A stretch of DNA of 64,000 nt from Candidatus Roizmanbacteria bacterium RIFOXYC1_FULL_41_16 (lineage in GTDB: Bacteria; Patescibacteriota; Microgenomatia; UBA1406): the NCBI GenBank assembly GCA_001788295.1, contig MGBO01000021.1, forward strand, positions 74,003 to 138,002, read 5' to 3'. The position numbers and the translations under genes were made by a program. Below the pieces are notes generated by a model. It was not told the DNA's origin. It searched no databases and was given only the letters and a program-made list of their open reading frames with translations. Below, one piece after another: positions 6,148 through 45,349 of the stretch (within the stretch, counting starts at the first letter, position 1; each line of letters starts with the position of its first letter).

Positions 6148-7605
6148 CTAAAGCTCTATTTGATTAAGCAAATCTGAATTTTGTGAATCAAGAATACTCT
6201 TACCCTCAAAGTAATCAGGAACCGAAACCCCAAGCAGATTCAATAAAGTGGCGCTAGTTTCGTAAATATTGATATTGGTTCGCTTCTTAGCAAGCTTAAC
6301 TTTGTTTGCCAAAGCCAATATTCCTAATGGCCTGTGTTCGCCGCTCTTTAAAGTGTGCGGAGTAGAAAATACCTGATTGTCCAAAAACGGACTGATTGCG
6401 CTCGCTCCATAAGCATACTGGCCGGCGCTGTACAGCAAATCCGGGCCGTACTTAGAATAAGGACCGTGATAAACCGCTTTTTTCTCCCAAATCTGATCGA
6501 TCACCGGCTGACCATGATCGGATAATTTATTTAGAGCCGTCCGAACCAGCTGTTGGCTTTTCTGATCTTTTTTAATCAAATAAATATTACCGTAATATCC
6601 AAACGCAAACGCCAATGACTTTTGCCAATCAATATCCGACAGTTCCAAAAACAGTTTAATTTTCTGGGCTTTCCCGCGTCCCTTACTGGAACTGGGGAGT
6701 TTGTTCAGCTTAAGAGCCAGTTTGGCAACGTTGCTTGGCGTCACCCCCAGATCAAACAGCATCTTCTTGGCCCGGGTTTTAAAATCCGTTTTTAGTACTA
6801 GTAAACCCTGTTTAAGAAAATAAGTGTTTAAGTTTAAATTCTTAAGGTACGGTCCGGCGCCATGATCAGAAAACACCAAATACTGAGCAAAACGATTTTG
6901 CTCTAACTTGGTTAATAAATAACGATCAATTTGCCTATAAACCTTGAGCATTTTCTCAGGCTGATGAAAAAACCAGTGCTGCACGTGATCCACTTCCATA
7001 AAATTAACGGCAAACAAATCCCAATCAGCCTTAGATTCGGCCCAGTCAAAAACTTTAATTTTTTGTCTGATGCTTTCAATTAGCTCGTGAAAATAGGCGC
7101 TTTGAGAGGCTTGATCCATTCCATAGCGAACCTTCTCAGTAAAACTATAGTCGGGAAAACGGTTTTTAAACTCACCTTGTAAATCGCGTGGATAGATAAA
7201 ATCAGCCTCCAGATTTGGAGTCAGAAAGCCGGACAAAAATAAGCCCTTAACCGGCCGGAGCGGGTAAGTAAAAGGCAAGTTCAATACTGCTATTTTCTTT
7301 TGCTGTCGAGACAATATTTCAAAAATGGTTGGTTTTTGATTACTGTCAGCCAAGTTCACAGTTATCTGTTTATTTTTATCAAATCGATAAAAGTCAAAAA
7401 CGTTGTGTTTGCCGGCGTTTACTCCGGTATAAAGACTGGTCCAAGCCACAGGAGTGAGAGGCGGCACGGTTGATTCCAAGTTCAAAGCCAAGCCTGTTTT
7501 TAGCAATCTGGCAAAACCAGGCAATCGGCCAGCTTTTACCCAAGGTTTGATCAAATCCCAAGTAGCGCTGTCAATGCCTAAAAAAAAGAGCGAGTTTGGC
7601 TTCAT
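6148..7605 (-). CDS. Alkaline-phosphatase-superfamily protein, type I phosphodiesterase/nucleotide pyrophosphatase-like
   Basis: N-terminal GIDSATWDLI metal-ligand block. FSDHGAG and MEVDHVQH motifs of the ENPP-like AlkP superfamily. Tandem paralog of the next gene. Confidence 0.6.
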   Translation of the reverse strand: MKPNSLFFLGIDSATWDLIKPWVKAGRLPGFARLLKTGLALNLESTVPPLTPVAWTSLYTGVNAGKHNVFDFYRFDKNKQITVNLADSNQKPTIFEILSRQQKKIAVLNLPFTYPLRPVKGLFLSGFLTPNLEADFIYPRDLQGEFKNRFPDYSFTEKVRYGMDQASQSAYFHELIESIRQKIKVFDWAESKADWDLFAVNFMEVDHVQHWFFHQPEKMLKVYRQIDRYLLTKLEQNRFAQYLVFSDHGAGPYLKNLNLNTYFLKQGLLVLKTDFKTRAKKMLFDLGVTPSNVAKLALKLNKLPSSSKGRGKAQKIKLFLELSDIDWQKSLAFAFGYYGNIYLIKKDQKSQQLVRTALNKLSDHGQPVIDQIWEKKAVYHGPYSKYGPDLLYSAGQYAYGASAISPFLDNQVFSTPHTLKSGEHRPLGILALANKVKLAKKRTNINIYETSATLLNLLGVSVPDYFEGKSILDSQNSDLLNQIEL

Positions 7606-9086
7606 TATATTTCAATCTCATCAATTGATAACGATTCTGCTTTGTCAATTATCGCCTGGCCAAGACAATAATCAGGAACAGGCTCGTTAAAAAAACGCAA
7701 AATAGTTGGAGTAATATCTTCCAAACAAGGCTTCGTCACCTTAAGGTCAGTTTTTGGATACAAGCCCAATATACCGTTTATCCGATGCTCACCGGATTTA
7801 TTGGTAATAGGGTCTGTAAACAGCTTATTGCCGGAAAAAGCATAAATGTTGGTTGACACAATGGCGCCTTCTTTCAATAAAAATTGAATGTTAGGAATGG
7901 TTTTAGGCAAAACTTTGGTTTGATAAATATTTTCTGAGCTATCAACAAAGGTTAGTTCTTTCTTAAAGTCTTGTCGGAGAGCGGTTAATATTTCTGTCAG
8001 CAACTTCTTATTTTTTTGTGTTAAGAAAATACCGCCGTACATGCCAAAAGAATAAGCCCGGGTTTTATGCCAATCCAGATCAGCATAGGACAAAATCAGT
8101 TTGTTAAGAAATCGGTTTCGAGTTTGCATTTTAATCCTACCGGCTTTTCTCACCAAGCCAAGTTTGGAGGCCAATCCTATCAGTTTCTCAGGATTAAAGC
8201 CTAAATTCGTCAGTAGTCGTTTCATTAAAACCAGGGGCGTATTTTTAAAATAAAGATATCCTTTTTCTCTTAGCCAATGATTAAGAAAAACGGTTTTCTC
8301 CAATTTACCGGCGCCATGATCAGAAAAAATCATAATCTGATATTGGTCGCTATATTTGGTTAGAACTTCCAATAGATATTGGTCAACAATTTGATAAACC
8401 TTTAAAATCGCGTCGTGATAAGGGGAATTTGGCTGATCCATAAACTCCCAGAAAAAATGCTGCACATGGTCAACTGCCATAAAATTAACTGCAAACAAAT
8501 CCCAGTCATCCTTTGCAAAAAGCCATTTGGCTACACGAGCCGTCTCCCTGGCGTCTTCCAGGTTTTCTTTAAACCTCAACTCATAACTTTTGGGGTCGTT
8601 TTTACTCACTTTGGTTCCTGGGGCAAAATGAAATTTGGGAAAACGCTTGAGAAACTCCGGTTTCAGGCTTTTGGGTTTAATAAAGTCCGCTTTAATTCCC
8701 GGTGTCATTAATCCGGAAATCATAATGCCGTTCACTTTCTTAAAAGGATAGGTAATAGGCAAATTACAAACCGCGATTTTTTTACCAGCTCGGCTCAAAA
8801 TGTCCCAGAAAAATGCATGAGAAAGTTCCGAAGCGAGGTTTACCGTAATCTGACGACTCGCATCCAGTCGATAAAAATCATAGAATCCATGAACAGCCGG
8901 CGACACGCCGGTCATTGCCGTTGGCCAAGCCACCGGTGTAATTGGGGGCATTGTGGAGCGCAAATCAAGGGTGGAACCCTGTTTCAGCAGTTTCCAAAAG
9001 CCTGGAAGCTTACCGGCCTTGGCCCATGGAACAATCAAATCCCAAGTGGCGCTGTCAATGCCAAAGAAAAAAAGTTTTTTTTTCAT
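7605..9086 (-). CDS. Alkaline-phosphatase-superfamily protein, type I phosphodiesterase/nucleotide pyrophosphatase-like (paralog)
   Basis: Same motif set as the neighbouring paralog (GIDSATWDLI, FSDHGAG, MAVDHVQH). Its stop overlaps the start of the downstream paralog at 7605. Confidence 0.6.
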   Translation of the reverse strand: MKKKLFFFGIDSATWDLIVPWAKAGKLPGFWKLLKQGSTLDLRSTMPPITPVAWPTAMTGVSPAVHGFYDFYRLDASRQITVNLASELSHAFFWDILSRAGKKIAVCNLPITYPFKKVNGIMISGLMTPGIKADFIKPKSLKPEFLKRFPKFHFAPGTKVSKNDPKSYELRFKENLEDARETARVAKWLFAKDDWDLFAVNFMAVDHVQHFFWEFMDQPNSPYHDAILKVYQIVDQYLLEVLTKYSDQYQIMIFSDHGAGKLEKTVFLNHWLREKGYLYFKNTPLVLMKRLLTNLGFNPEKLIGLASKLGLVRKAGRIKMQTRNRFLNKLILSYADLDWHKTRAYSFGMYGGIFLTQKNKKLLTEILTALRQDFKKELTFVDSSENIYQTKVLPKTIPNIQFLLKEGAIVSTNIYAFSGNKLFTDPITNKSGEHRINGILGLYPKTDLKVTKPCLEDITPTILRFFNEPVPDYCLGQAIIDKAESLSIDEIEI

Positions 9087-36697: not shown

Positions 36698-36784
36698 TGG
36701 TGCCAGGGAAGGGACTTGAACCCTTACACCCATAATGGGCACAGGATCCTAAATCCTGCGTGTCTGCCATTCCACCACCCTGGC
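36698..36784 (-). tRNA. tRNA-Leu (anticodon TAG), type II with long variable arm, CCA encoded
   Basis: Minus-strand read GCCAGGG...CAGGA-TTTAGGA-TCCTG...CCCATTATGGG...AAGGGTTCAAGTCCCTT-CCCTGGC-A-CCA. Folds with a 7-bp acceptor, 5-bp anticodon stem, variable stem-loop and T arm. Confidence 0.85.
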
Positions 36785-38911: not shown

Positions 38912-39967
38912 CTACCTTAAGCTCTTAACCAATGAATTATAAAAAGTCAGGTTATGAATGGTAGCTAGCCGATAGTATAAGGTTTCTTTAATTTTGTAAA
39001 GATGATGCAGATAAGCCCGAGAGTAATTTTGACAGGTCGGGCATGAACAATTATTATCGATTGGTTTTGGGTCTTTGGCAAATACTCCCCGACCAATGTA
39101 AAGAAATTTATTCTTTGGCAAGTATAAACGGCCGTGTCTGGCGTCGCGGGTGGGCAGCACACAATCGAAAAAGTGATAACCGTACTTGACTCCCAAAGTA
39201 ATATCCGAGGGCTTCCCCACGCCCAAGGCAAAGCGCGGTTTGTGATCCGGAGTCAGAGAAGCGTTGTATTTAAAAAGCTTATTATTAAACTGTCCCTGCT
39301 CATTAATTGGCCACCCGCCATATCCATAAAGATCAAAATTCATCTTGACCAGCTCTTGGCTACAGGCTTGTCTAAGTTTTTCATTATTCCCCCCCTGAAG
39401 CACGCCCATTAACCAAGGCCGGTTTGCCTCTGACAATTTTCGTTGTTTTATTTGCCGCTCAAATTCGTCTTTTGAACGCCTGGCCCATTTTAAGGTTAGA
39501 TCCACCGAGCGCTCCTGTTCGAGTTTGCTGGCTTTAGGATCGGTAAAATAATCCAATACCACCATCACATCTGAGTTAATCGCAAATTGAGTCTGAATTG
39601 AAAGCTCCGGCGTAAACAAAATTGTTTTATCTTCGCCTTTTATCCGCCAGGTAAATTTAAGCCCATCGGGCAAAATTTTTCCTTTGATTTTGGCTTGATG
39701 AAGTAAAGACATGATTTGAAACCCACCAGAATCAGAAACGACCAAACCTTCAAAATTCATAAATTTCGAGACGCCGCCAAATTGCTGCAACCTTTCCATT
39801 CCGGGATTAATCATTAAATGAAAAGTATTCACTACCACCGCATCAATACCACAGCCGTCCAAATCCGCCTTATCCAAACCACGTACCACGCCCAAAGTGG
39901 CGTCTGGCAAAAAAATCGGAAGGTCAATTGATTTGCCCCGAATAGTCAGATTGGTTATGCCGCTCAT
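38912..39967 (-). CDS. tgt: Queuine tRNA-ribosyltransferase (tRNA-guanine transglycosylase)
   Basis: C-terminal zinc site CSCPTCQNYSRAYLHHL plus (beta/alpha)8 core blocks. Start trimmed to MSGITNL, removing overlap with the divergent gene. Confidence 0.8.
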   Translation of the reverse strand: MSGITNLTIRGKSIDLPIFLPDATLGVVRGLDKADLDGCGIDAVVVNTFHLMINPGMERLQQFGGVSKFMNFEGLVVSDSGGFQIMSLLHQAKIKGKILPDGLKFTWRIKGEDKTILFTPELSIQTQFAINSDVMVVLDYFTDPKASKLEQERSVDLTLKWARRSKDEFERQIKQRKLSEANRPWLMGVLQGGNNEKLRQACSQELVKMNFDLYGYGGWPINEQGQFNNKLFKYNASLTPDHKPRFALGVGKPSDITLGVKYGYHFFDCVLPTRDARHGRLYLPKNKFLYIGRGVFAKDPKPIDNNCSCPTCQNYSRAYLHHLYKIKETLYYRLATIHNLTFYNSLVKSLR

Positions 39968-39988: not shown

Positions 39989-40468
39989 ATGTTCAACATT
40001 ATACCAATCAAACAGAGTAAGAGTTATTGGTGCGGCCCAGCCAGCCTTAAAATGGTTCTGTCTTATTATCACCTTGACATTAGAGAGCGCGAACTGGCGC
40101 AAAAAACCCAGGCCAGTCCGATTCACGGCGTCAGCTCAACTAATTTAGTTAAAACCGCTACCGAATACGGCCTAAAGGGATTTATTAAAAGTGATGCCGA
40201 ACTAAATGACATCAAACATTATGTTTTGGACAAACAGATTCCGGTAATTGTCGATTGGTTTCAAATTGACGATGGCCATTACTCGGTCGTTGTCGATATC
40301 AACGACAAATATATCTATCTACTTGATCCGTATGTCGGCCATCTGGTTAGTTTTAAAATCCATCATTTTTACCGTATCTGGTTTGATTTTCCTGGGCCTT
40401 ATCTAGCCAAAAAAGAAGATTTGATTTTGCGCCAGATGATTGTGATTTCCAAAAAAATCAATAAATAA
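39989..40468 (+). CDS. Stand-alone C39-like papain-fold cysteine peptidase domain protein
   Basis: QSKSYWCGPASLKMVLSYY (catalytic Cys context) and DDGHYSVVV (His), typical of the Peptidase_C39 / C39_2 domain. Confidence 0.55.
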   Translation: MFNIIPIKQSKSYWCGPASLKMVLSYYHLDIRERELAQKTQASPIHGVSSTNLVKTATEYGLKGFIKSDAELNDIKHYVLDKQIPVIVDWFQIDDGHYSVVVDINDKYIYLLDPYVGHLVSFKIHHFYRIWFDFPGPYLAKKEDLILRQMIVISKKINK

Positions 40469-40488
40469 TTCTTGACATTTTTAGCCGA

Positions 40489-41553
40489 TTGTTTATTATT
40501 CACTTGATGCAAAATACTGATAAACCTGGCGGCGACGAAAAACTAACTAACGGCAACGGCAATAATTTGATTCTCCCCAAAAGCCTGAGCATTATCTACA
40601 GCGATGTCAAGCGTGAATACTTCCCTACCGAAGCTCAATATATTACCGAAAAAGATGCCAAGAAAAATGCCGAGGCTGTGGGTAGTTATGTTGAAAAACT
40701 CGGTGTCAAAGTCCGGCTGATTCCGGCTAACGTCGACCTTCCTCAACATTTGCGTCAGGATAAGCCGGAAATGGTCATGAACCTGGTCGATTCTGTTCGC
40801 GGCAACGAGTACTTGAGCTCAACTATTCCCGCTTTGCTGGAATTTTTGCAAATCCCCTACACCGGCACCAGTGTCTATGGTATGTCCTTGTGTTTTAATA
40901 AATTTCTAACCAAAAAAGTGTTTGAGCAAAATGGCATTCCGGTGCCTCGGTATCAGTTGTTCAATACTGCCACCGACTTACTCGAACCCACCTTGAGATT
41001 TCCACTTATTTCCAAGCTCAACGAAATTCACGGTTCGGTAGAAATTACCCAGGAGGCTGTCTCGGAAACCGAAAAACAATTGCGTGACCGGCTCAAATAT
41101 TTAATCAGTACTTATAATCAGCAAGTACTGGTTGAGGAATTTGTGGTTGGTCGGGAAATCTCCGCTTATATTTTAGAGGGTGTTCACAAAAAAATTTATT
41201 TGGTCGAAAATATTTTTGCCGAATCCGATAATAAATATCAATTTGCCGATTTTCAGATGCAGTGGGTCGATACCGAAAGCAAAATTACCAATCAAAAGTT
41301 TTCCGATCCCCTGCTCAAAGAATATGTTCGTAAGGCTTTCGACATTGCCCGAATGTCTGATTACAGCAAATTCGATATCCGCCTGGATAATTCCGGCCGC
41401 TATTATTTCATCGATTCCAATGCCAATCCTTTTTTTGGCCCCCCCGAGATCGAGTGCCCCTTAACCAAAACTCTGGAAATGTACTCCATTAGTTTCCCGG
41501 AAATTCTCAAGAGATTAATTAATAATACCATGAGGGAGGCCCATGACATCTGA
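40489..41553 (+). CDS. ATP-grasp enzyme, D-alanine--D-alanine ligase family-like
   Basis: Ddl-like N-terminal domain. Central IPALLEFLQIPYTGTSVYGMSLCFNKFLTKK. C-terminal FDIRLDNSGRYYFIDSNANP (Mg/ATP site). Confidence 0.55.
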   Translation: MFIIHLMQNTDKPGGDEKLTNGNGNNLILPKSLSIIYSDVKREYFPTEAQYITEKDAKKNAEAVGSYVEKLGVKVRLIPANVDLPQHLRQDKPEMVMNLVDSVRGNEYLSSTIPALLEFLQIPYTGTSVYGMSLCFNKFLTKKVFEQNGIPVPRYQLFNTATDLLEPTLRFPLISKLNEIHGSVEITQEAVSETEKQLRDRLKYLISTYNQQVLVEEFVVGREISAYILEGVHKKIYLVENIFAESDNKYQFADFQMQWVDTESKITNQKFSDPLLKEYVRKAFDIARMSDYSKFDIRLDNSGRYYFIDSNANPFFGPPEIECPLTKTLEMYSISFPEILKRLINNTMREAHDI

Positions 41554-42904
41554 ATTAGTCATTTATCTTTATAATGTTGTTGAGGATGAATGGTCTTTTA
41601 TTTCCTCGCTCTCCAATCCGATTGAGCAGGCCCAAGAAATCGACAGTTCGCGTACTAGTGTCGATACTTATTTTTTGGGTTATGCCAATGGCCAAAACTT
41701 GTTGTTTGTTTCACCGATAAAAATTAGTTCCGATTTCCAGCGTTATACCAAAAATCTTACTAATTACAAAAATACACAGGTTGTCGTTCCTCAGGCTCAC
41801 TCTCACTTGCTCTGTCTTGATCTGATAAATGACAAGCAAACTTTAGAGGCGCTCATCACTGAGGCCAAGAAATATCAAAAAATTACTCTCATCAGCTATG
41901 CTGCCACTCCGGAATTTTTCCAACTCAAGCAAGTTTTAATTAATAAAGACCTGAATATTTATTGTCCCGAAGCGCCGGAAATTGAAAGCGCCTGGACAGT
42001 TAATTTTTTTGGCAGCAAGAGTGGAATCCGTCAGTTGGCTCAGAAAAGTGCGGCCGTAGAACCGGACTTTACCATGCCAGAGGGAGTAATCGTTGTGGGC
42101 ATTTATAATGCGGCCAAAATCGCCGCCAATAAGTACATCAAGCAAAAAGGAGTGGTGATCAAGACCAATAAAGGCAGCAGCGGCAATGGTTTGCTTATTT
42201 TCCGCGAGAACGATTTGCCCAATGATTATCTAAGTTGTGAGCAAAAGCTGACTGAAATATTAAAATCCGAACCCTATTGGGAGCGCTTCCCGATAATTGT
42301 CGAGGATTTGATCAGTATTAATTATGGTGTGGCCAATGGCTATCCCAATGTCGAATTTAAAATCCACAAAAGCGGTCGCATTGAGATGCTTTATTACTGC
42401 TCACTTGCCGTCACCAAGGACGGTGCTTTTCTGGGAATTGACATTCATGAAGACATTATCAACGATCGGCTGTCCACTATGATTGTTGATACCGGTTATT
42501 TTGTGGCCGAACGACTAGCCGCCGAGGGTTACCGCGGCTATTTTGACATTGATATGATTGCCGGTAAAAATAACAAAATCTACGTCTGCGAAACCAACAC
42601 CAGAAATACCGGCGGCACTGATATTTACAAGCTGGTGTTGCGATTGATCGGCAAAGAATTTATGGATGAGCGCTATATTTTAAGCCGTACTCATTACCAT
42701 TTGGCCAAAGCTGTCCGCTTTGAGGAAATTCTCTCCAGTCTCAAATCATTGCTTTACAACCGCCGAAACAAAGAAGGCCTGATCATTAATTCGGCCAGCC
42801 GCCTCAAACAGCAGGAACTGATTTACACTATTATCGGCAAGAATAAACGCCGCGCGTACCAAACGGAACAGGAAGTGTTCAAGATCCTAAAGTCGCTTAA
42901 TTAA
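41543..42904 (+). CDS. ATP-grasp superfamily ligase (PGM1-like peptide/amide ligase), paralog A
   Basis: C-terminal GYRGYFDIDMIAGKNNKIYVCETNTRNTGGT block (ATP-grasp E-x-N plus R). Pre-ATP-grasp N-terminal domain. Start ATGA overlaps the stop of the upstream gene. Confidence 0.5.
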   Translation: MTSELVIYLYNVVEDEWSFISSLSNPIEQAQEIDSSRTSVDTYFLGYANGQNLLFVSPIKISSDFQRYTKNLTNYKNTQVVVPQAHSHLLCLDLINDKQTLEALITEAKKYQKITLISYAATPEFFQLKQVLINKDLNIYCPEAPEIESAWTVNFFGSKSGIRQLAQKSAAVEPDFTMPEGVIVVGIYNAAKIAANKYIKQKGVVIKTNKGSSGNGLLIFRENDLPNDYLSCEQKLTEILKSEPYWERFPIIVEDLISINYGVANGYPNVEFKIHKSGRIEMLYYCSLAVTKDGAFLGIDIHEDIINDRLSTMIVDTGYFVAERLAAEGYRGYFDIDMIAGKNNKIYVCETNTRNTGGTDIYKLVLRLIGKEFMDERYILSRTHYHLAKAVRFEEILSSLKSLLYNRRNKEGLIINSASRLKQQELIYTIIGKNKRRAYQTEQEVFKILKSLN

Positions 42905-44250
42905 TTCAGAAACCCACCCAAGGCTTTTTTAAGTGCCTCAGAATAACTCGTGACCTCATCATGACTGTTGCCAAAAATCGCCGGAACCAGAATTTTCTCC
43001 GACAACATATCAGGGTTAACAATGACAATCCCCTTTGTCTGACCAGGCTTCAACATTAACGGTTCGATTTTGGCTTTCAGTTCCTGATAAGATAAGGCCT
43101 GCTTTAATTTCAAATCCAAGCTCATTAAATAATATTTATCCCAGTAGCCCTCTCCCAATAAGGCCTCTGCCAGTTCATGCAAGTGTGTCCCGCCGGTCCG
43201 CCTAAGATTAGCCTCCACCGCAAAAGCACGACCCTCTTTATCCACAACCATGTCGATGTCAAAACAGCCACGATAGCCCTTATCAGATAAAACTTTACCC
43301 AAGGCCATTCCGGCTTGCTTTGCCGCTTGCATTTGTGGAGATTTTAAAAGCTCCGGATGAATATAGACGCCAATAAATTTCTTGCCCTGCTCCAAAATCT
43401 GCTCGCAAGGATAGGAAAAGTCAACTTGGCCAGTTTCATTAATAAACAACTCCACGTTCGGACTGCCTCCAAATTTGCTGGAATCAGGCTCAATCAGCGC
43501 CTCCACTATCACTGCCGGCTCCTGCCACAAGGTTTCGGTCAAACGACTTTTTAGTTGCTGTAAAAAAGTGGTTTTATCTGAAGCAAAGTCTGCGACTCTG
43601 TTTAAAACAATTCCCATCCCCTGCACGCCACGGTTGTACTTAATAACAAAACTACGATTATGGCTCCGAAACCACCAAGCCGCTTCAAGAGCTTCCTTTA
43701 AATCACCACAGATATAACCCTCAGGAATATTAATATCAGTCCGAAAATCATCAAGCACTCCTGACCATAAGTGCCGAAACCCACGCTTGGTATTGTAGTA
43801 ATTAAGGATAAATTCGTCGCTTCCGGCAATCAGCTCCGGCGTCTTAAAATCCAGCTTTTCTTGTCGCAAAGATTCCACCAATTGATGAAACTCCGGCGTT
43901 GAGCGATACTGAATCAAGGCAATGCCCGGATTTTGCTTTATTAAAGTTATTAGTTGTTTTCTTAAATCTAAATTATTAACAATATCCAAACTGATGCTGG
44001 GATTAGGCTTGGATGGAAACAGGTTCAATACATTTTGCCAACCGGTAATTTGCTTAAGATCACTTAAATATTCTGGATTGATCGGATAAGAAGTTATAAT
44101 TGCCTTATTGTCGGCTCCATATAAAACAGCTCGATTGGCTTCCAAAAAATCATAACGATACCAGTTTAGTTTTTCCTGCTCCGGCAGTTGATCATAACCA
44201 CGGTAATAGCTTTCCAAAACGTTAGAGATGTAAACTGTCTGAAACTTCAT
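42901..44250 (-). CDS. ATP-grasp superfamily ligase (PGM1-like), paralog B
   Basis: Collinear with paralog A (…GYRGCFDIDMVVDKEGRAFAVEANLRRTGGT…). Convergent; its stop overlaps within TTAATTAA. Confidence 0.5.
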   Translation of the reverse strand: MKFQTVYISNVLESYYRGYDQLPEQEKLNWYRYDFLEANRAVLYGADNKAIITSYPINPEYLSDLKQITGWQNVLNLFPSKPNPSISLDIVNNLDLRKQLITLIKQNPGIALIQYRSTPEFHQLVESLRQEKLDFKTPELIAGSDEFILNYYNTKRGFRHLWSGVLDDFRTDINIPEGYICGDLKEALEAAWWFRSHNRSFVIKYNRGVQGMGIVLNRVADFASDKTTFLQQLKSRLTETLWQEPAVIVEALIEPDSSKFGGSPNVELFINETGQVDFSYPCEQILEQGKKFIGVYIHPELLKSPQMQAAKQAGMALGKVLSDKGYRGCFDIDMVVDKEGRAFAVEANLRRTGGTHLHELAEALLGEGYWDKYYLMSLDLKLKQALSYQELKAKIEPLMLKPGQTKGIVIVNPDMLSEKILVPAIFGNSHDEVTSYSEALKKALGGFLN

Positions 44251-44290
44251 ACTAGAAGAATGTAAAGTTTTTGTGTTAAAATGTCAAGAG

Positions 44291-44361
44291 TGCGGGTGTG
44301 GTTCAATGGTAGAACGAATCCCTTCCAAGGATTAGACGAGGGTTCGATTCCCTTCACCCGC
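44291..44361 (+). tRNA. tRNA-Gly (anticodon TCC)
   Basis: GCGGGTG-TG-GTTCAATGGTAGAAC-G-AATCC-CTTCCAA-GGATT-AGAC-GAGGGTTCGATTCCCTT-CACCCGC-T. CCA not encoded. Confidence 0.85.
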
Positions 44362-44557
44362 TCATGGAATTGTCACCGGAGACTACCCAAATTGTACTAG
44401 AATCGGTTAAATGTCTATCAATTTCTATTCTCGGATACATAGGTCTTCTCGCCGGTATGGAATTAGGAGGTAGGATTGTCGGTTACCCTGGTAGAGGCTT
44501 AGAAACTCACGAACAAATTATGAAAACTATTAAATCAGCTTTTAAAAAAAATCGGAC

Positions 44558-45127
44558 CTAAATAAAATCTAGAAGAATAGGAATTTCTGTCACTCCACCA
44601 ACTTCTTTCATAAAATGTCCTTTATTGTGTTCAACTATAATTCTTGCTCCCAACTTCTGTTGATATGCTGATTTATTCTGATCTAAAGGAACCCAGGGAT
44701 CGTTATCCGAAAAAAGAGCGATAAAAATATTTGCTAGACGCTTTACTTTTTTATAATCTATGGGTGTTTCATACCATGGCTTTATAATTTCATGATCTTC
44801 GGGAAGCGGTAAAGCTTCTTCGCTCAATACCTCCCAGCCTGCGACAAGAATCACTTTATCTACTTTTTCATTTTGTTGATCCAAGTATCTTAAAATTGCC
44901 TGACAGCCCATTGAATGGCCAATCAGGATATCGCTTGACTCTAGCTGGCCAATAATTTTTTTAATTTTTTGTAGCCAGTCTGCCATCACAGGATAATCTG
45001 GATTGGGCATCATGAGGGCAGAGGCCTTATACCCTCTTTTTTTAAGCTCTTCTAATGCCCAAGGAAACCAATCCTTGTTATTTCTCCCTGTCCAACCATG
45101 AATAATAAAGGCTCGTTTTCCTTTCAT
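44558..45127 (-). CDS. Alpha/beta-fold serine hydrolase (YdeN/RBBP9-like, Ser_hydrolase family)
   Basis: IIHGWTG at the N-terminus and nucleophile elbow GHSMGC. Confidence 0.55.
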   Translation of the reverse strand: MKGKRAFIIHGWTGRNNKDWFPWALEELKKRGYKASALMMPNPDYPVMADWLQKIKKIIGQLESSDILIGHSMGCQAILRYLDQQNEKVDKVILVAGWEVLSEEALPLPEDHEIIKPWYETPIDYKKVKRLANIFIALFSDNDPWVPLDQNKSAYQQKLGARIIVEHNKGHFMKEVGGVTEIPILLDFI

Positions 45128-45226: not shown

Positions 45227-45349
45227 TGCTCTGGTTATTTGTGCGAACTGGAACCACCTCTTCCCATTCCGAACAGAGTCGTGAAACGGTTAGAGCGCCA
45301 ACGATACTACGGGTTAACGCCCAATGGAAAATAGGTCATAGCCAGGGCA
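45227..45349 (+). rRNA. rrf: 5S ribosomal RNA
   Basis: Matches the 5S consensus core …CCACCUCUUCCCAUUCCGAACAGAGUCGUGAAACGGUUAGAGCGCCAACGAUACUACGGG…GCCAGGGCA. Helix I pairs the 5' UGCUCUGG with the 3' end. Followed by a U5 tract. Confidence 0.85.

What the first reader, a model, noticed from the sequence alone, without database searches (positions are those of the whole stretch)
39989..44361. C39-like peptidase plus three ATP-grasp ligases ending at tRNA-Gly: candidate peptide ligation/modification module
Four consecutive genes encode a stand-alone C39-like papain-fold peptidase domain and three ATP-grasp enzymes. The first is D-Ala-D-Ala-ligase-like; the other two are large paralogs of about 450 aa with a pre-ATP-grasp N-terminal domain and a PGM1-like C-terminal block (E-x-N-x-R-x-TGGT). 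The first three are tightly packed or overlapping on one strand. The fourth is convergent and abuts tRNA-Gly(TCC). C39 domains normally process double-glycine leader peptides. PGM1-type and Ddl-type ATP-grasp ligases form peptide or isopeptide bonds. In a reduced genome, a three-ligase-plus-peptidase block is not a standard pathway. It could make a ribosomal-peptide natural product or a non-canonical cell-wall or surface peptide. No precursor-peptide gene was recognisable; the only nearby small ORF (44364-44561) looks unconvincing.
Basis: partly seen in the sequence, partly recalled or inferred. Interest (0 to 1): 0.7.

Follow-up and report, generated by a model that had tools for sequence, protein, structure and literature searches.

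The report
Variable amide-ligase cassette with C39 peptidase
Four real, conserved genes of a tiny-genome Roizmanbacteria (CPR) bacterium encode a cysteine peptidase and three ATP-dependent amide-bond ligases; related genomes suggest an uncharacterised housekeeping-type peptide-building cassette rather than an antibiotic-peptide (RiPP) cluster.

Summary
The window carries a stand-alone C39 peptidase, a Ddl-like ATP-grasp ligase (called Ddl1 here), two PGM1-type ATP-grasp paralogs (A and B) and tRNA-Gly(UCC) at the stated coordinates. All keep their catalytic residues.

The RiPP reading is not supported. About 165 related loci show no conserved precursor ORF, and the loci with Pfam-annotated genes show no dedicated exporter or carrier protein.

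The block combines two separately conserved units:
- C39 + Ddl1. A Ddl1-type gene directly follows the C39 gene in 11 of 36 independent C39 lineages from CPR metagenomes. One protein fuses the two.
- Ligase A. It occurs in at least 221 species-level genomes, mostly labelled Microgenomates. It is usually operonic with another Ddl-like ligase (Ddl3), and paralogs A2 and B are optional.

In the window's relatives the cassette fills a fixed slot between tgt and tRNA-Gly, with varying content.

Best reading: cytoplasmic, ribosome-independent, stepwise ATP-dependent peptide ligation, with C39 as the partner amidase or processing enzyme of Ddl1. The product is unknown; a cell-wall-type peptide is the leading candidate.

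One unexplained detail: ligases adjacent to C39 carry a conserved N-terminal (D/E/K)(E/K)PGG tail. It could be the double-glycine site that the peptidase cuts.

The parts
39989..40468 (+). Stand-alone C39-type (double-glycine-protease-like) cysteine peptidase, 159 aa, predicted cytoplasmic
40507..41553 (+). Ddl1: Ddl-like ATP-grasp ligase, 348 aa (longest ORF starts at TTG 40489). Not a D-Ala-D-Ala ligase. Its N-terminal tail is MQNTDKPGG...
   Evidence: Pfam Dala_Dala_lig_C scores 49.6 bits, with no Dala_Dala_lig_N hit. The best NCBIfam Ddl model scores 103.6 against a cut-off of 243. ATP/Mg residues are kept (K97, K144, E180, E187, D257, N272). Positions equivalent to E. coli DdlB S150, K215, Y216, R255 and S281 are G, Q, W, K and a gap. 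A Ddl1-type gene directly follows the C39 gene in 11 of 36 C39 lineages, and the two are fused in P0368.
41543..42904 (+). Ligase A: PGM1-type ATP-grasp amide ligase, 453 aa; the most conserved member of the cassette
   Evidence: PDB sequence hits to PGM1 (E = 6.8e-7) and 8ynd. The AF2 model (pLDDT 93.6) matches 3wvq at TM 0.80, 8ynd at 0.73-0.76 and BesA at 0.73. K159, K207, E254, D337, E350, N352 and R354 are invariant across 65 A- and B-family sequences. 759 database homologs and 221 species-level loci.
42901..44250 (-). Ligase B: second PGM1-type ATP-grasp paralog, 449 aa, convergent with A
   Evidence: 28% identical to A, E = 1e-52. Hits BesA (E = 5.3e-7), 8ynd and PGM1. It forms a separate orthologous group of about 100 proteins that includes WWE3-labelled members. 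It occurs next to C39-Ddl1 without A in L174 and L112, and alone in L175.
44292..44363 (+). tRNA-Gly(UCC): conserved right-hand boundary of the cassette slot
   Evidence: ARAGORN and Rfam. The same tRNA bounds the cassette in L173, L174, L025 and L009.
38912..39967 (-). tgt (queuine tRNA-ribosyltransferase): conserved left-hand boundary of the slot
   Evidence: TIGR00430 scores 314.5 against a cut-off of 306.75. The called gene is 351 aa. The same neighbour is found in L173, L174, L025, L009 and L176.
40472..40499 (+). Promoter-like site (TTGACA-16-TATTAT, 11 of 12 matches) between C39 and Ddl1
   Evidence: Consensus scan only; not evidence of function.
44259..44287 (-). Promoter-like site (TTGACA-17-TACATT, 10 of 12 matches), 9 bp upstream of B
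   Evidence: Consensus scan only.
44364..44561 (+). 65-aa ORF; probably not a gene and not a precursor peptide
   Evidence: No Pfam or NCBIfam hit. Found only in the identical genome (L001), and absent from the syntenic relative L173.

Best explanation
The block is a lineage-variable cassette of cytoplasmic amide-bond enzymes in a Candidatus Roizmanbacteria (CPR) genome. It is assembled from two separately conserved units.

Unit 1 is the C39-type thiol peptidase plus the Ddl1-type ATP-grasp ligase. This gene pair recurs across C39 lineages in CPR metagenomes, and one protein fuses the two. I infer that both enzymes act on the same molecule.

Unit 2 is PGM1-type ligase A, found across Microgenomates-labelled genomes and usually co-transcribed with another Ddl-like ligase (Ddl3). 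Paralogs A2 and B are optional additions.

Inferred mechanism: each ligase uses ATP to activate a carboxylate as an acyl-phosphate and couples it to an amine. The set would then build or extend a short peptide one residue at a time, without a ribosomal precursor or a carrier protein. The C39 enzyme would hydrolyse, trim or transfer the Ddl1 product, or mature Ddl1 itself.

The product is unknown. My leading guess is a cell-wall-type peptide, such as a stem, bridge or recycling intermediate. A soluble peptide metabolite comes next.

Shown here: gene identities, intact active sites, folds, conserved gene linkage and a fusion. Inferred: substrates, order of steps and product.
For: - Organism: ligase A is identical or nearly so to hypothetical proteins of two Roizmanbacteria assemblies.
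- Catalytic competence and folds.
- Purifying selection. Against the syntenic relative L173, A is 80% identical, Ddl1 79%, C39 66% and B 64%. Neighbouring Tgt is 70%, the MBL-fold hydrolase 74% and L31 81%.
- Ligase A was analysed in 79 non-redundant loci. A Ddl3-type gene lies on the same strand beside it in 35 loci, directly after A in 25, often with a 4-bp overlap. A2, B, Ddl1 and Ddl2 join in varying combinations.
- A Ddl1-type gene directly follows the C39 gene in 11 of 36 independent C39 lineages. P0368 is a Ddl1-C39 fusion. Other proteins fuse two Ddl-like modules, or an L-amino-acid-ligase module with a Ddl-like one, which fits consecutive ligation steps.
- Fixed slot with variable content between tgt and tRNA-Gly: [C39-Ddl1-A-B] in the window and L173, [C39-Ddl1-B] in L174, [C39-Ddl1-A-Ddl3] in L025, [A] in L009, [A-B] in L176.
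- No GC anomaly over the block.
- Weak pointers to the cell wall. The ligases are Ddl-like. Ddl3 keeps DdlB residues S150, K215, R255 and S281. PeiR, a cell-wall isopeptidase, is among the top three structural matches of the C39 model. An LD-carboxypeptidase (S66) lies next to B in L173, VanY is near C39-Ddl1 in L092, and GlmS lies about 1.3 kb from A in 8 loci.
Against: - No substrate is identified.
- The commonest neighbours of the A cluster are not cell-wall genes: a ClpC/ClpB-like AAA+ ATPase, an MgtE-like protein, a methyltransferase and an M17 aminopeptidase.
- A C39 homolog at 54% identity carries an NCBI Woesearchaeota (DPANN archaea) label. From my own knowledge such archaea are not expected to make murein. 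Its loci lack a Ddl1 gene.
- C39 has no signal peptide, so it cannot act on the mature wall.
- None of the three Ddl-like types has a canonical Ddl N-terminal domain. I could not check whether these genomes hold a canonical Ddl elsewhere.
- A stands alone in 27 of 79 loci and B alone in L175, so the enzymes can work without the others nearby.
Confidence: 0.55

Rival explanations
1. RiPP or bacteriocin-type module. C39 removes a double-glycine leader from a ribosomal precursor, and the PGM1-type ligases acylate the freed N-terminus, as PGM1 does in pheganomycin synthesis.
Against: No conserved small ORF in 79 A loci and 85 C39 loci. The only nearby ORF is genome-specific. No ABC/PCAT exporter or other tailoring gene appears among the annotated genes of the window locus. 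Ligase A behaves like a broadly conserved core gene amid housekeeping genes. C39 is present in only 2 of the 79 A loci.
Confidence: 0.1
2. Synthetase/amidase pair for a soluble small peptide or amide metabolite, such as a storage, osmolyte, thiol-like or amino-acid-buffering compound. Ddl1 makes it, C39 breaks it, and A and B make related di- or tripeptides. The analogues are glutathionylspermidine synthetase/amidase and the hmrA-ldmS operon.
For: Conserved C39-Ddl1 adjacency and one fusion. In other lineages C39 is fused to an AstE/AspA-type deacylase (L164) or lies next to a Ddl-like-GNAT fusion (L168); both are typical of N-acyl amino acid and dipeptide metabolism. A core-genome operon of a peptidase and an L-amino-acid ligase is known in Staphylococcus (PMC9486568). 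BesA, a structural relative of A and B, makes a gamma-glutamyl dipeptide. A C39 homolog labelled as archaeal argues against a murein-only role.
Against: No transporter, regulator or riboswitch points to a metabolite; Rfam finds only three tRNAs and a 5S rRNA in the window. Three to six ligases per cassette is many for one dipeptide.
Confidence: 0.22
3. Reversible peptide tagging of proteins. The ligases add residues to a protein terminus, as RimK and tubulin-tyrosine ligase do, and C39 (fused to an M14-like domain in some lineages) removes them.
For: A ClpC/ClpB-like AAA+ ATPase is the commonest neighbour of the A cluster: 35 of 79 loci, and 22-24 of 122 immediate flanking genes. Neighbours of C39 elsewhere are translation genes: ArgRS, SmpB, IF3 and L20. 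A C39-AstE/M14-like fusion exists. From my own knowledge, known ligase/eraser pairs combine ATP-grasp ligases with papain-like or M14 peptidases, for example TTL with vasohibin and TTLL with CCP.
Against: The neighbour conservation may be plain synteny within one clade. No target protein is identified. Ddl1 is closer to Ddl than to RimK.
Confidence: 0.1
4. C39 processes its partner ligases. It cuts the conserved (D/E/K)(E/K)PGG motif in their N-terminal tails, which would mature or regulate the ligase. This could coexist with any of the product hypotheses.
For: 13 of 19 Ddl1 proteins encoded next to C39 have a PGG tail, against 0 of 6 Ddl1 proteins without an adjacent C39 (Fisher one-sided p = 0.005, not corrected for phylogeny). 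PGG occurs in the first 45 residues of 11 of 28 Ddl1 proteins but only 10 of 1735 other proteins in the loci. The same motif sits on the tails of some A- and B-family ligases: P0009, P0088, P0096, P0341 and the L079 ligase A. C39 is structurally a double-glycine protease.
Against: The tails are short and hydrophilic. From my own knowledge, classical GG leaders carry hydrophobic residues at positions -4, -7 and -12, which these tails lack. L176 and L079 carry the motif with no C39 gene in the fetched locus. None of 21 broader Ddl1-family representatives has the motif. The motif could have been inherited within one clade.
Confidence: 0.2

Closest known systems
PGM1 (pheganomycin peptide ligase, PDB 3wvq), the Streptomyces ATP-grasp peptide ligase 8ynd, and BesA (8yi6)
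   Same: A and B share the whole three-part fold, including the pre-ATP-grasp and C-terminal domains (TM 0.73-0.80), and the E-x-N-x-R-x-TGGT catalytic block. They presumably share acyl-phosphate chemistry.
   Different: Only 14-19% identical. The known enzymes come from Streptomyces and belong to specialised metabolism; PGM1 also uses a ribosomal peptide. A and B are broadly conserved CPR genes among housekeeping neighbours with no precursor gene, and in relatives A is usually followed by a Ddl-like ligase.
Double-glycine leader peptidases of PCAT/AMS transporters (LahT150 6mpz, PCAT1, ComA; MEROPS C39)
   Different: Free-standing 159-aa protein with no ABC transporter and no leader-peptide gene nearby. 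Its conserved partner is an ATP-grasp ligase.
Pseudomurein endoisopeptidase PeiR (8z4h; MEROPS C71 by my recollection)
   Different: The known Pei enzymes are phage or virus lytic enzymes that lyse methanogens (PMC4592898 and PMC6189367). The window protein has no secretion signal.
ATP-grasp plus papain-like transacylase pairs: CtaD/CtaG (closthioamide) and BtrJ/BtrH (butirosin)
   Different: Those pathways are thiotemplated: 95% of CtaD-type loci encode a carrier protein. No carrier-protein gene appears in the window locus.
Peptidase plus ligase pairs of primary metabolism: the hmrA-ldmS operon of Staphylococcus, and glutathionylspermidine synthetase/amidase (own knowledge)
   Same: A peptidase or amidase and an ATP-grasp ligase are encoded together or fused in a core-genome context, and may make and break the same bond (PMC9486568; fusion P0368).
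   Different: The peptidase families differ (M20D or CHAP against C39), and so do the ligase subfamilies. LdmS is only a distant structural relative of A (TM about 0.6).
D-alanine-D-alanine ligase (Ddl) and VanA-type ligases
   Same: Ddl1 has the Ddl-type ATP-grasp C-terminal domain, and all its PDB sequence hits are Ddl or Van ligases.
   Different: It falls below every NCBIfam Ddl cut-off, has a different N-terminal domain, and has replaced the D-Ala-binding residues.

Membership tests
Peptidase C39 (double-glycine leader peptidase) | Profile match above the curated threshold | tested here: met
   PF03412 scores 58.5 bits against a cut-off of 22; PF13529 scores 52.7 against 24.
Peptidase C39 (double-glycine leader peptidase) | Catalytic Cys/His (plus Asp) and oxyanion Gln | tested here: met
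   C15, H97 and D113 are invariant and Q9 is at least 90% conserved in 21 homologs.
Peptidase C39 (double-glycine leader peptidase) | Papain-like C39 fold | tested here: met
Peptidase C39 (double-glycine leader peptidase) | Fused to, or encoded with, an ABC exporter | tested here: not met
   It is a 159-aa stand-alone protein, and no ABC transporter lies within 10 kb either side in the window locus. The recurrent neighbours of the C39 gene are Ddl1, ArgRS and SmpB.
Peptidase C39 (double-glycine leader peptidase) | A substrate peptide with a GG leader encoded nearby | tested here: not met
   No conserved small ORF was found. The only GG candidates are the PGG tails of the partner ligases.
D-Ala-D-Ala ligase (Ddl) | Curated Ddl profile scores | tested here: not met
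   The best model, NF002378, scores 103.6 against a cut-off of 243.
D-Ala-D-Ala ligase (Ddl) | Canonical N-terminal domain and D-Ala-binding residues (DdlB S150, K215, Y216, R255, S281) | tested here: not met
   There is no PF01820 hit. The aligned residues are G, Q, W, K and a gap.
ATP-grasp superfamily (Ddl1, A and B) | ATP/Mg-binding Lys, Lys, acidic residue and E/D-x-N motif | tested here: met
   Ddl1 keeps K97, K144, E180, E187, D257, D270 and N272 in DdlB numbering. A and B keep K159, K207, D337, E350, N352 and R354, invariant in 65 sequences.
PGM1-type ATP-grasp peptide ligases | PGM1 fold with pre-ATP-grasp and C-terminal domains | tested here: met
   TM 0.80 to 3wvq, against 0.5-0.6 for the next fold class. 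The PreAtp-grasp Pfam hits fall below the cut-off.
PGM1-type ATP-grasp peptide ligases | Uses a ribosomally made peptide as nucleophile, within a biosynthetic gene cluster | tested here: not met
   There is no precursor gene, and the flanking genes are housekeeping genes rather than biosynthetic ones. Enzyme activity cannot be tested with these tools.
RiPP biosynthetic gene cluster | Precursor gene, tailoring enzymes and export or immunity genes in one locus | tested here: not met
   Only candidate tailoring enzymes are present.
Graspetide (microviridin-type) ATP-grasp | Homology to MdnB/MdnC-type ligases and a nearby precursor | tested here: not met
   PDB sequence searches with A, B and Ddl1 return only PGM1, BesA, 8ynd, LdmS and Ddl-type chains. 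CPR graspetide loci described in PMC8939145 have precursors; none is seen here.
Anti-phage defence systems (PADLOC) | Match to any defence-system model | tested here: not met
   None of the four proteins has a hit.

The most novel reading that the evidence does not exclude
The free-standing double-glycine peptidase and its ATP-grasp partners form a previously undescribed, self-contained ligase/peptidase system, widespread in CPR bacteria. C39 would cut the conserved (D/E/K)(E/K)PGG N-terminal tails of the ligases, or remove what they add. The ligase set would assemble a non-canonical cell-envelope peptide without a ribosomal precursor, NRPS or carrier protein.
Probability: 0.15. Interest if true: 0.75.

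Novelty: new variant of a known kind. Interest (0 to 1): 0.5.

Why it matters
CPR bacteria have very small genomes, yet this lineage keeps three to six ATP-grasp amide ligases under purifying selection, plus a leader-peptidase-like enzyme with no exporter. All of the ligase homologs that carry a source name are annotated only as hypothetical or generic ATP-grasp proteins.

If the cassette builds a cell-wall or other essential peptide, it would be an unrecognised piece of CPR physiology and a possible lineage marker.

If C39 processes its partner ligases, that would be a new role for a protease family known mainly from bacteriocin export.

The proteins are soluble and single-domain, so the system is experimentally tractable.

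The result also warns against reading "C39 plus ATP-grasp" as a RiPP cluster in CPR genomes.

Tried and rejected
- Precursor-peptide search. I clustered all ORFs of at least 50-60 aa in 79 loci of ligase A and 85 C39 loci, and ran tblastn with the window's 65-aa ORF and with two small ORFs beside an archaeon-labelled C39 gene. Nothing is conserved outside identical contigs.
- Ddl1 as the housekeeping Ddl. Rejected on profile scores and substrate residues.
- Ddl3 as the canonical Ddl. Unresolved. It is the most Ddl-like type (154-184 bits; 100 bits to E. coli DdlB) but lacks the canonical N-terminal domain. I could not scan whole genomes for another Ddl.
- Horizontal-transfer island at the tRNA. 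Rejected. GC content is normal, the slot is syntenic in relatives, and the tRNA is conserved.
- Defence system. No PADLOC hits.
- Riboswitch or other RNA clue. Rfam finds only three tRNAs and a 5S rRNA in the window.
- Thiotemplated CtaD/CtaG-like assembly. No carrier-protein gene is present.
- Census of cell-wall genes among immediate neighbours. The top families were AAA+/ClpB-like, MgtE/CBS, methyltransferase and M17, with no Mur or PBP families in the top 25. No Mur ligase lies in the first 25 kb of the window.
- Calls that failed. The afdb50 fold library was unavailable. The Iyer et al. 2009 amidoligase paper is not held.

Full report
**Observation.**
- C39 peptidase (39989-40468, +) passes the Pfam C39 and C39_2 thresholds.
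- The Ddl-like gene is an ORF from 40489; the called start is ATG 40507. It passes Dala_Dala_lig_C but falls far below every NCBIfam Ddl cut-off: 103.6 bits against 243.
- The two large genes, A (41543-42904, +) and B (42901-44250, -), are paralogs: 28% identity, E = 1e-52. Both carry the E-x-N-x-R-x-TGGT block.
- A and B give weak but significant sequence hits to PGM1, BesA and the Streptomyces ATP-grasp peptide ligase 8ynd.
- A confident AlphaFold model of A (pLDDT 93.6) matches PGM1 at TM 0.80, 8ynd at 0.73-0.76 and BesA at 0.73. PurK, biotin carboxylase and LdmS score only about 0.5-0.6.
- The packing is as described: a 38-bp gap, an 11-bp overlap, a 4-bp convergent overlap, and 41 bp from B to tRNA-Gly(UCC).
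- The apparent overlap of tgt with C39 comes from a spurious 5' extension of the tgt ORF.

**Are the enzymes active?**
- A and B keep all ATP-grasp catalytic residues across 65 family members.
- Ddl1 keeps the ATP and Mg2+ ligands. The positions that bind D-alanine in E. coli DdlB (S150, K215, Y216, R255, S281) are G, Q, W, K and a gap. Its N-terminal domain is not the canonical one. It is an active-looking ligase but not a D-Ala-D-Ala ligase.
- None of the four proteins has a hydrophobic segment or room for a signal peptide, so all should be cytoplasmic.

**Organism and locus.**
- A is identical or nearly so to hypothetical proteins of Candidatus Roizmanbacteria RIFOXYB2_FULL_41_10 and RIFOXYA1_FULL_41_12.
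- The block has the GC content of its surroundings.
- It lies between tgt/dnaB on one side and tRNA-Gly, a serine hydrolase, a lone 5S rRNA gene, RNase J and RF1 on the other.
- Against the syntenic relative L173, A is 80% identical, Ddl1 79%, C39 66% and B 64%. Tgt is 70%, the MBL-fold hydrolase 74%, L31 81%, and RF1, RNase J and DnaB 88-91%. The four genes therefore evolve like ordinary enzymes under purifying selection.

**Comparative genomics of ligase A.**
- A has 759 database homologs.
- Relatives were found in 221 species-level genomes at about 45-57% identity. Those with informative labels are mostly Microgenomates groups: Roizman-, Gottesman-, Chisholm-, Beckwith- and Pacebacteria.
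- In 79 non-redundant loci A stands alone in 27, mostly the more distant lineages.
- In 35 loci it shares a same-strand cluster with a Ddl-like gene that I call Ddl3. In 25 of these Ddl3 follows A directly, often with a 4-bp overlap.
- Further ligases join in varying combinations: a third PGM1-type group (A2), B, the window's type (Ddl1) and a further type (Ddl2).
- Ddl3 is the most Ddl-like of the three: 154-184 bits on the Ddl model and 100 bits to DdlB, with S150, K215, R255 and S281 kept. It too lacks the canonical N-terminal domain.
- Other recurrent neighbours are housekeeping genes: a ClpC/ClpB-like AAA+ ATPase in 35 loci, a thymidylate-kinase fusion, an MgtE-like protein, a methyltransferase, an M17 aminopeptidase, and GlmS in 8 loci.
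- C39 is present in only two of these 79 loci, the window and L025.

**Comparative genomics of the C39 peptidase.**
- The 155-160-aa stand-alone C39 family is large: at least 1194 proteins at about 50% identity. The few named members are labelled Woesebacteria, Azambacteria, Parcubacteria and Woesearchaeota.
- I examined 85 loci. Among 36 independent lineages (clusters at 80% identity) with room downstream, 11 have a Ddl1-type ligase directly after the C39 gene on the same strand, often overlapping it. Five have ArgRS there. Two have convergent Ddl-like genes, one of them fused to a GNAT domain.
- L112 reads C39-Ddl1-B. L096 and L097 read C39-Ddl1-Ddl3.
- An exhaustive representative search with Ddl1 found P0368, a single polypeptide with a Ddl1-like ligase followed by a C39 domain that keeps the Gln, Cys, His and Asp residues.
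- The same search found tandem Ddl-like proteins and proteins that fuse an L-amino-acid-ligase module to a Ddl-like one. L164 fuses C39 to an AstE/AspA-type deacylase.
- Conserved adjacency plus a fusion is the strongest evidence here: C39 and Ddl1 work on the same thing.

**B and the slot.**
- B defines a smaller orthologous group of about 100 proteins that includes WWE3-labelled members.
- Between tgt and tRNA-Gly(UCC) the window's relatives carry different sets. The window and L173 have [C39-Ddl1-A-B], L174 has [C39-Ddl1-B], L025 has [C39-Ddl1-A-Ddl3], L009 has [A], and L176 has [A-B].
- The position is fixed and the content shuffles. The four genes are therefore a cassette drawn from an interlinked set of ligase families, not one indivisible module.

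**What is missing.**
- No conserved small ORF.
- No ABC/PCAT exporter, no carrier protein and no further tailoring enzyme among the annotated genes of the window locus.
- No defence-system match.
- No regulatory RNA.
- ORF 44364-44561 is confined to this genome.

**Interpretation.** These data do not support a RiPP or natural-product cluster.

The best-supported reading is a cytoplasmic, ribosome-independent peptide-ligation cassette:
- Each ATP-grasp enzyme activates a carboxylate as an acyl-phosphate and couples it to an amine. This chemistry is established for the superfamily.
- Several ligases in one operon, and natural ligase-ligase fusions, imply consecutive steps.
- C39 is the hydrolytic, trimming or transfer partner of Ddl1.

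The product cannot be determined with these tools. A cell-wall-type peptide is my first guess. The ligases are Ddl-like, PeiR is among the closest structures to C39, and S66, VanY and GlmS turn up as occasional neighbours. A published Microgenomates genome was reported to have an essentially complete peptidoglycan pathway (PMC7143001).

The neighbour census gives this guess no systematic support, and a C39 homolog carries an archaeal label.

The rivals are a soluble peptide made and broken by a synthetase/amidase pair (compare hmrA-ldmS, PMC9486568), reversible protein tagging, and a remote RiPP substrate.

**An unexplained detail.**
- Ddl1 proteins encoded next to C39 carry a conserved (D/E/K)(E/K)PGG motif in an otherwise variable N-terminal tail. 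In the window it reads MQNTDKPGG|DEK...
- The count is 13 of 19, against 0 of 6 Ddl1 proteins without an adjacent C39 (Fisher one-sided p = 0.005, not corrected for phylogeny).
- PGG occurs in the first 45 residues of 11 of 28 Ddl1 proteins and only 10 of 1735 other proteins in the loci.
- The motif also occurs on the tails of some A- and B-family ligases: P0009, P0088, P0096, P0341 and the L079 ligase A.
- Because C39 is structurally a double-glycine protease, the ligase tail may be its cleavage or docking site. This is a hypothesis only. The tails lack classical leader features, the motif occurs in loci without C39, and 21 broader family representatives lack it.

**Comparison with known systems and novelty.**
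- The parts belong to known superfamilies.
- ATP-grasp ligases are known to cooperate with papain-like enzymes in closthioamide and butirosin synthesis, but on carrier proteins (PMC7183216). From my own knowledge they also do so in glutathionylspermidine synthetase/amidase.
- Three things appear to be undescribed. The first is a free-standing C39 peptidase whose conserved partner is a Ddl-like ligase, recurrent in CPR metagenomes. The second is PGM1-type ligases as conserved genes of Microgenomates-labelled genomes, usually operonic with Ddl-like ligases. The third is their shuffling in a fixed chromosomal slot.
- My literature searches found no description of it.
- I rate it a new variant of a known kind, of moderate interest.

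**Limits.**
- I could not scan whole genomes for a canonical Ddl or for remote precursors.
- Gene calls in the fetched loci are my own greedy ORF calls.
- Lineage counts are only partly corrected for relatedness.
Residues 55-303 agree.

Noticed in passing
window 45230-45347 (+): A lone 5S rRNA gene (Rfam 61.8 bits) lies between the serine hydrolase and RNase J, with no 16S or 23S rRNA gene in the 64-kb window.
   Followed up: no
window 40507-40533; also L173, L174, L025, L088, L112, L115, L125, L133, L137, L138, L151: Ddl1-type ligases encoded next to C39 carry a conserved (D/E/K)(E/K)PGG motif in their N-terminal tail. The same motif sits on some PGM1-type ligases (P0009, P0088, P0096, P0341, and the ligase A of L079).
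   Followed up: partly
P0368 (524 aa); L164:5923-8181; L168:3739-5229; L059:3765-6206; P0437: Natural fusions: a Ddl1-like ligase with C39; C39 with an AstE/AspA-type deacylase; a Ddl-like ligase with GNAT; and an L-amino-acid-ligase-like ATP-grasp with a Ddl-like ligase.
   Followed up: partly
L176:5193-6596: In this relative, ligase A starts MPKSDKPGG..., resembling the Ddl1 tail of its close relatives, while C39 and Ddl1 are absent. This may be the remnant of a deletion that joined the Ddl1 start to A.
   Followed up: no
L089:5541-5832 (also L090, L099): Two small ORFs lie directly after a C39 gene whose protein is labelled Woesearchaeota. One ends ...EEVLLAGGAGYIV, which resembles a GG leader followed by a 5-residue core. 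They are found only on identical contigs.
   Followed up: partly
L034:93-7618: A 7.7-kb contig holds an inverted duplicate arrangement, Ddl3< A< ... A> Ddl3>, with identical scores on both arms. It may be an assembly palindrome.
   Followed up: no
window 6148-9086 (-): Two adjacent paralogous type I phosphodiesterase / nucleotide pyrophosphatase genes (485 and 493 aa) lie within a surface-polysaccharide-like gene region of epimerases and a GT4 glycosyltransferase.
   Followed up: no
L010, L078 and many loci: Record labels look unreliable. Loci with clear homologs of ligase A are titled 'Bathyarchaeia archaeon', 'candidate division TM6' or 'uncultured Gammaproteobacteria/Pseudomonadales'.
   Followed up: no
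L173:5470-6456 (-): In the closest syntenic relative, an LD-carboxypeptidase (Peptidase_S66) lies between the tRNA-Gly next to B and RNase J, in the region where the window has the serine hydrolase.
   Followed up: no
window 36698-36784 and L173, L174, L025: tRNA-Leu(UAG) lies next to dnaB or lgt in all of these relatives, marking the wider syntenic block.
   Followed up: no
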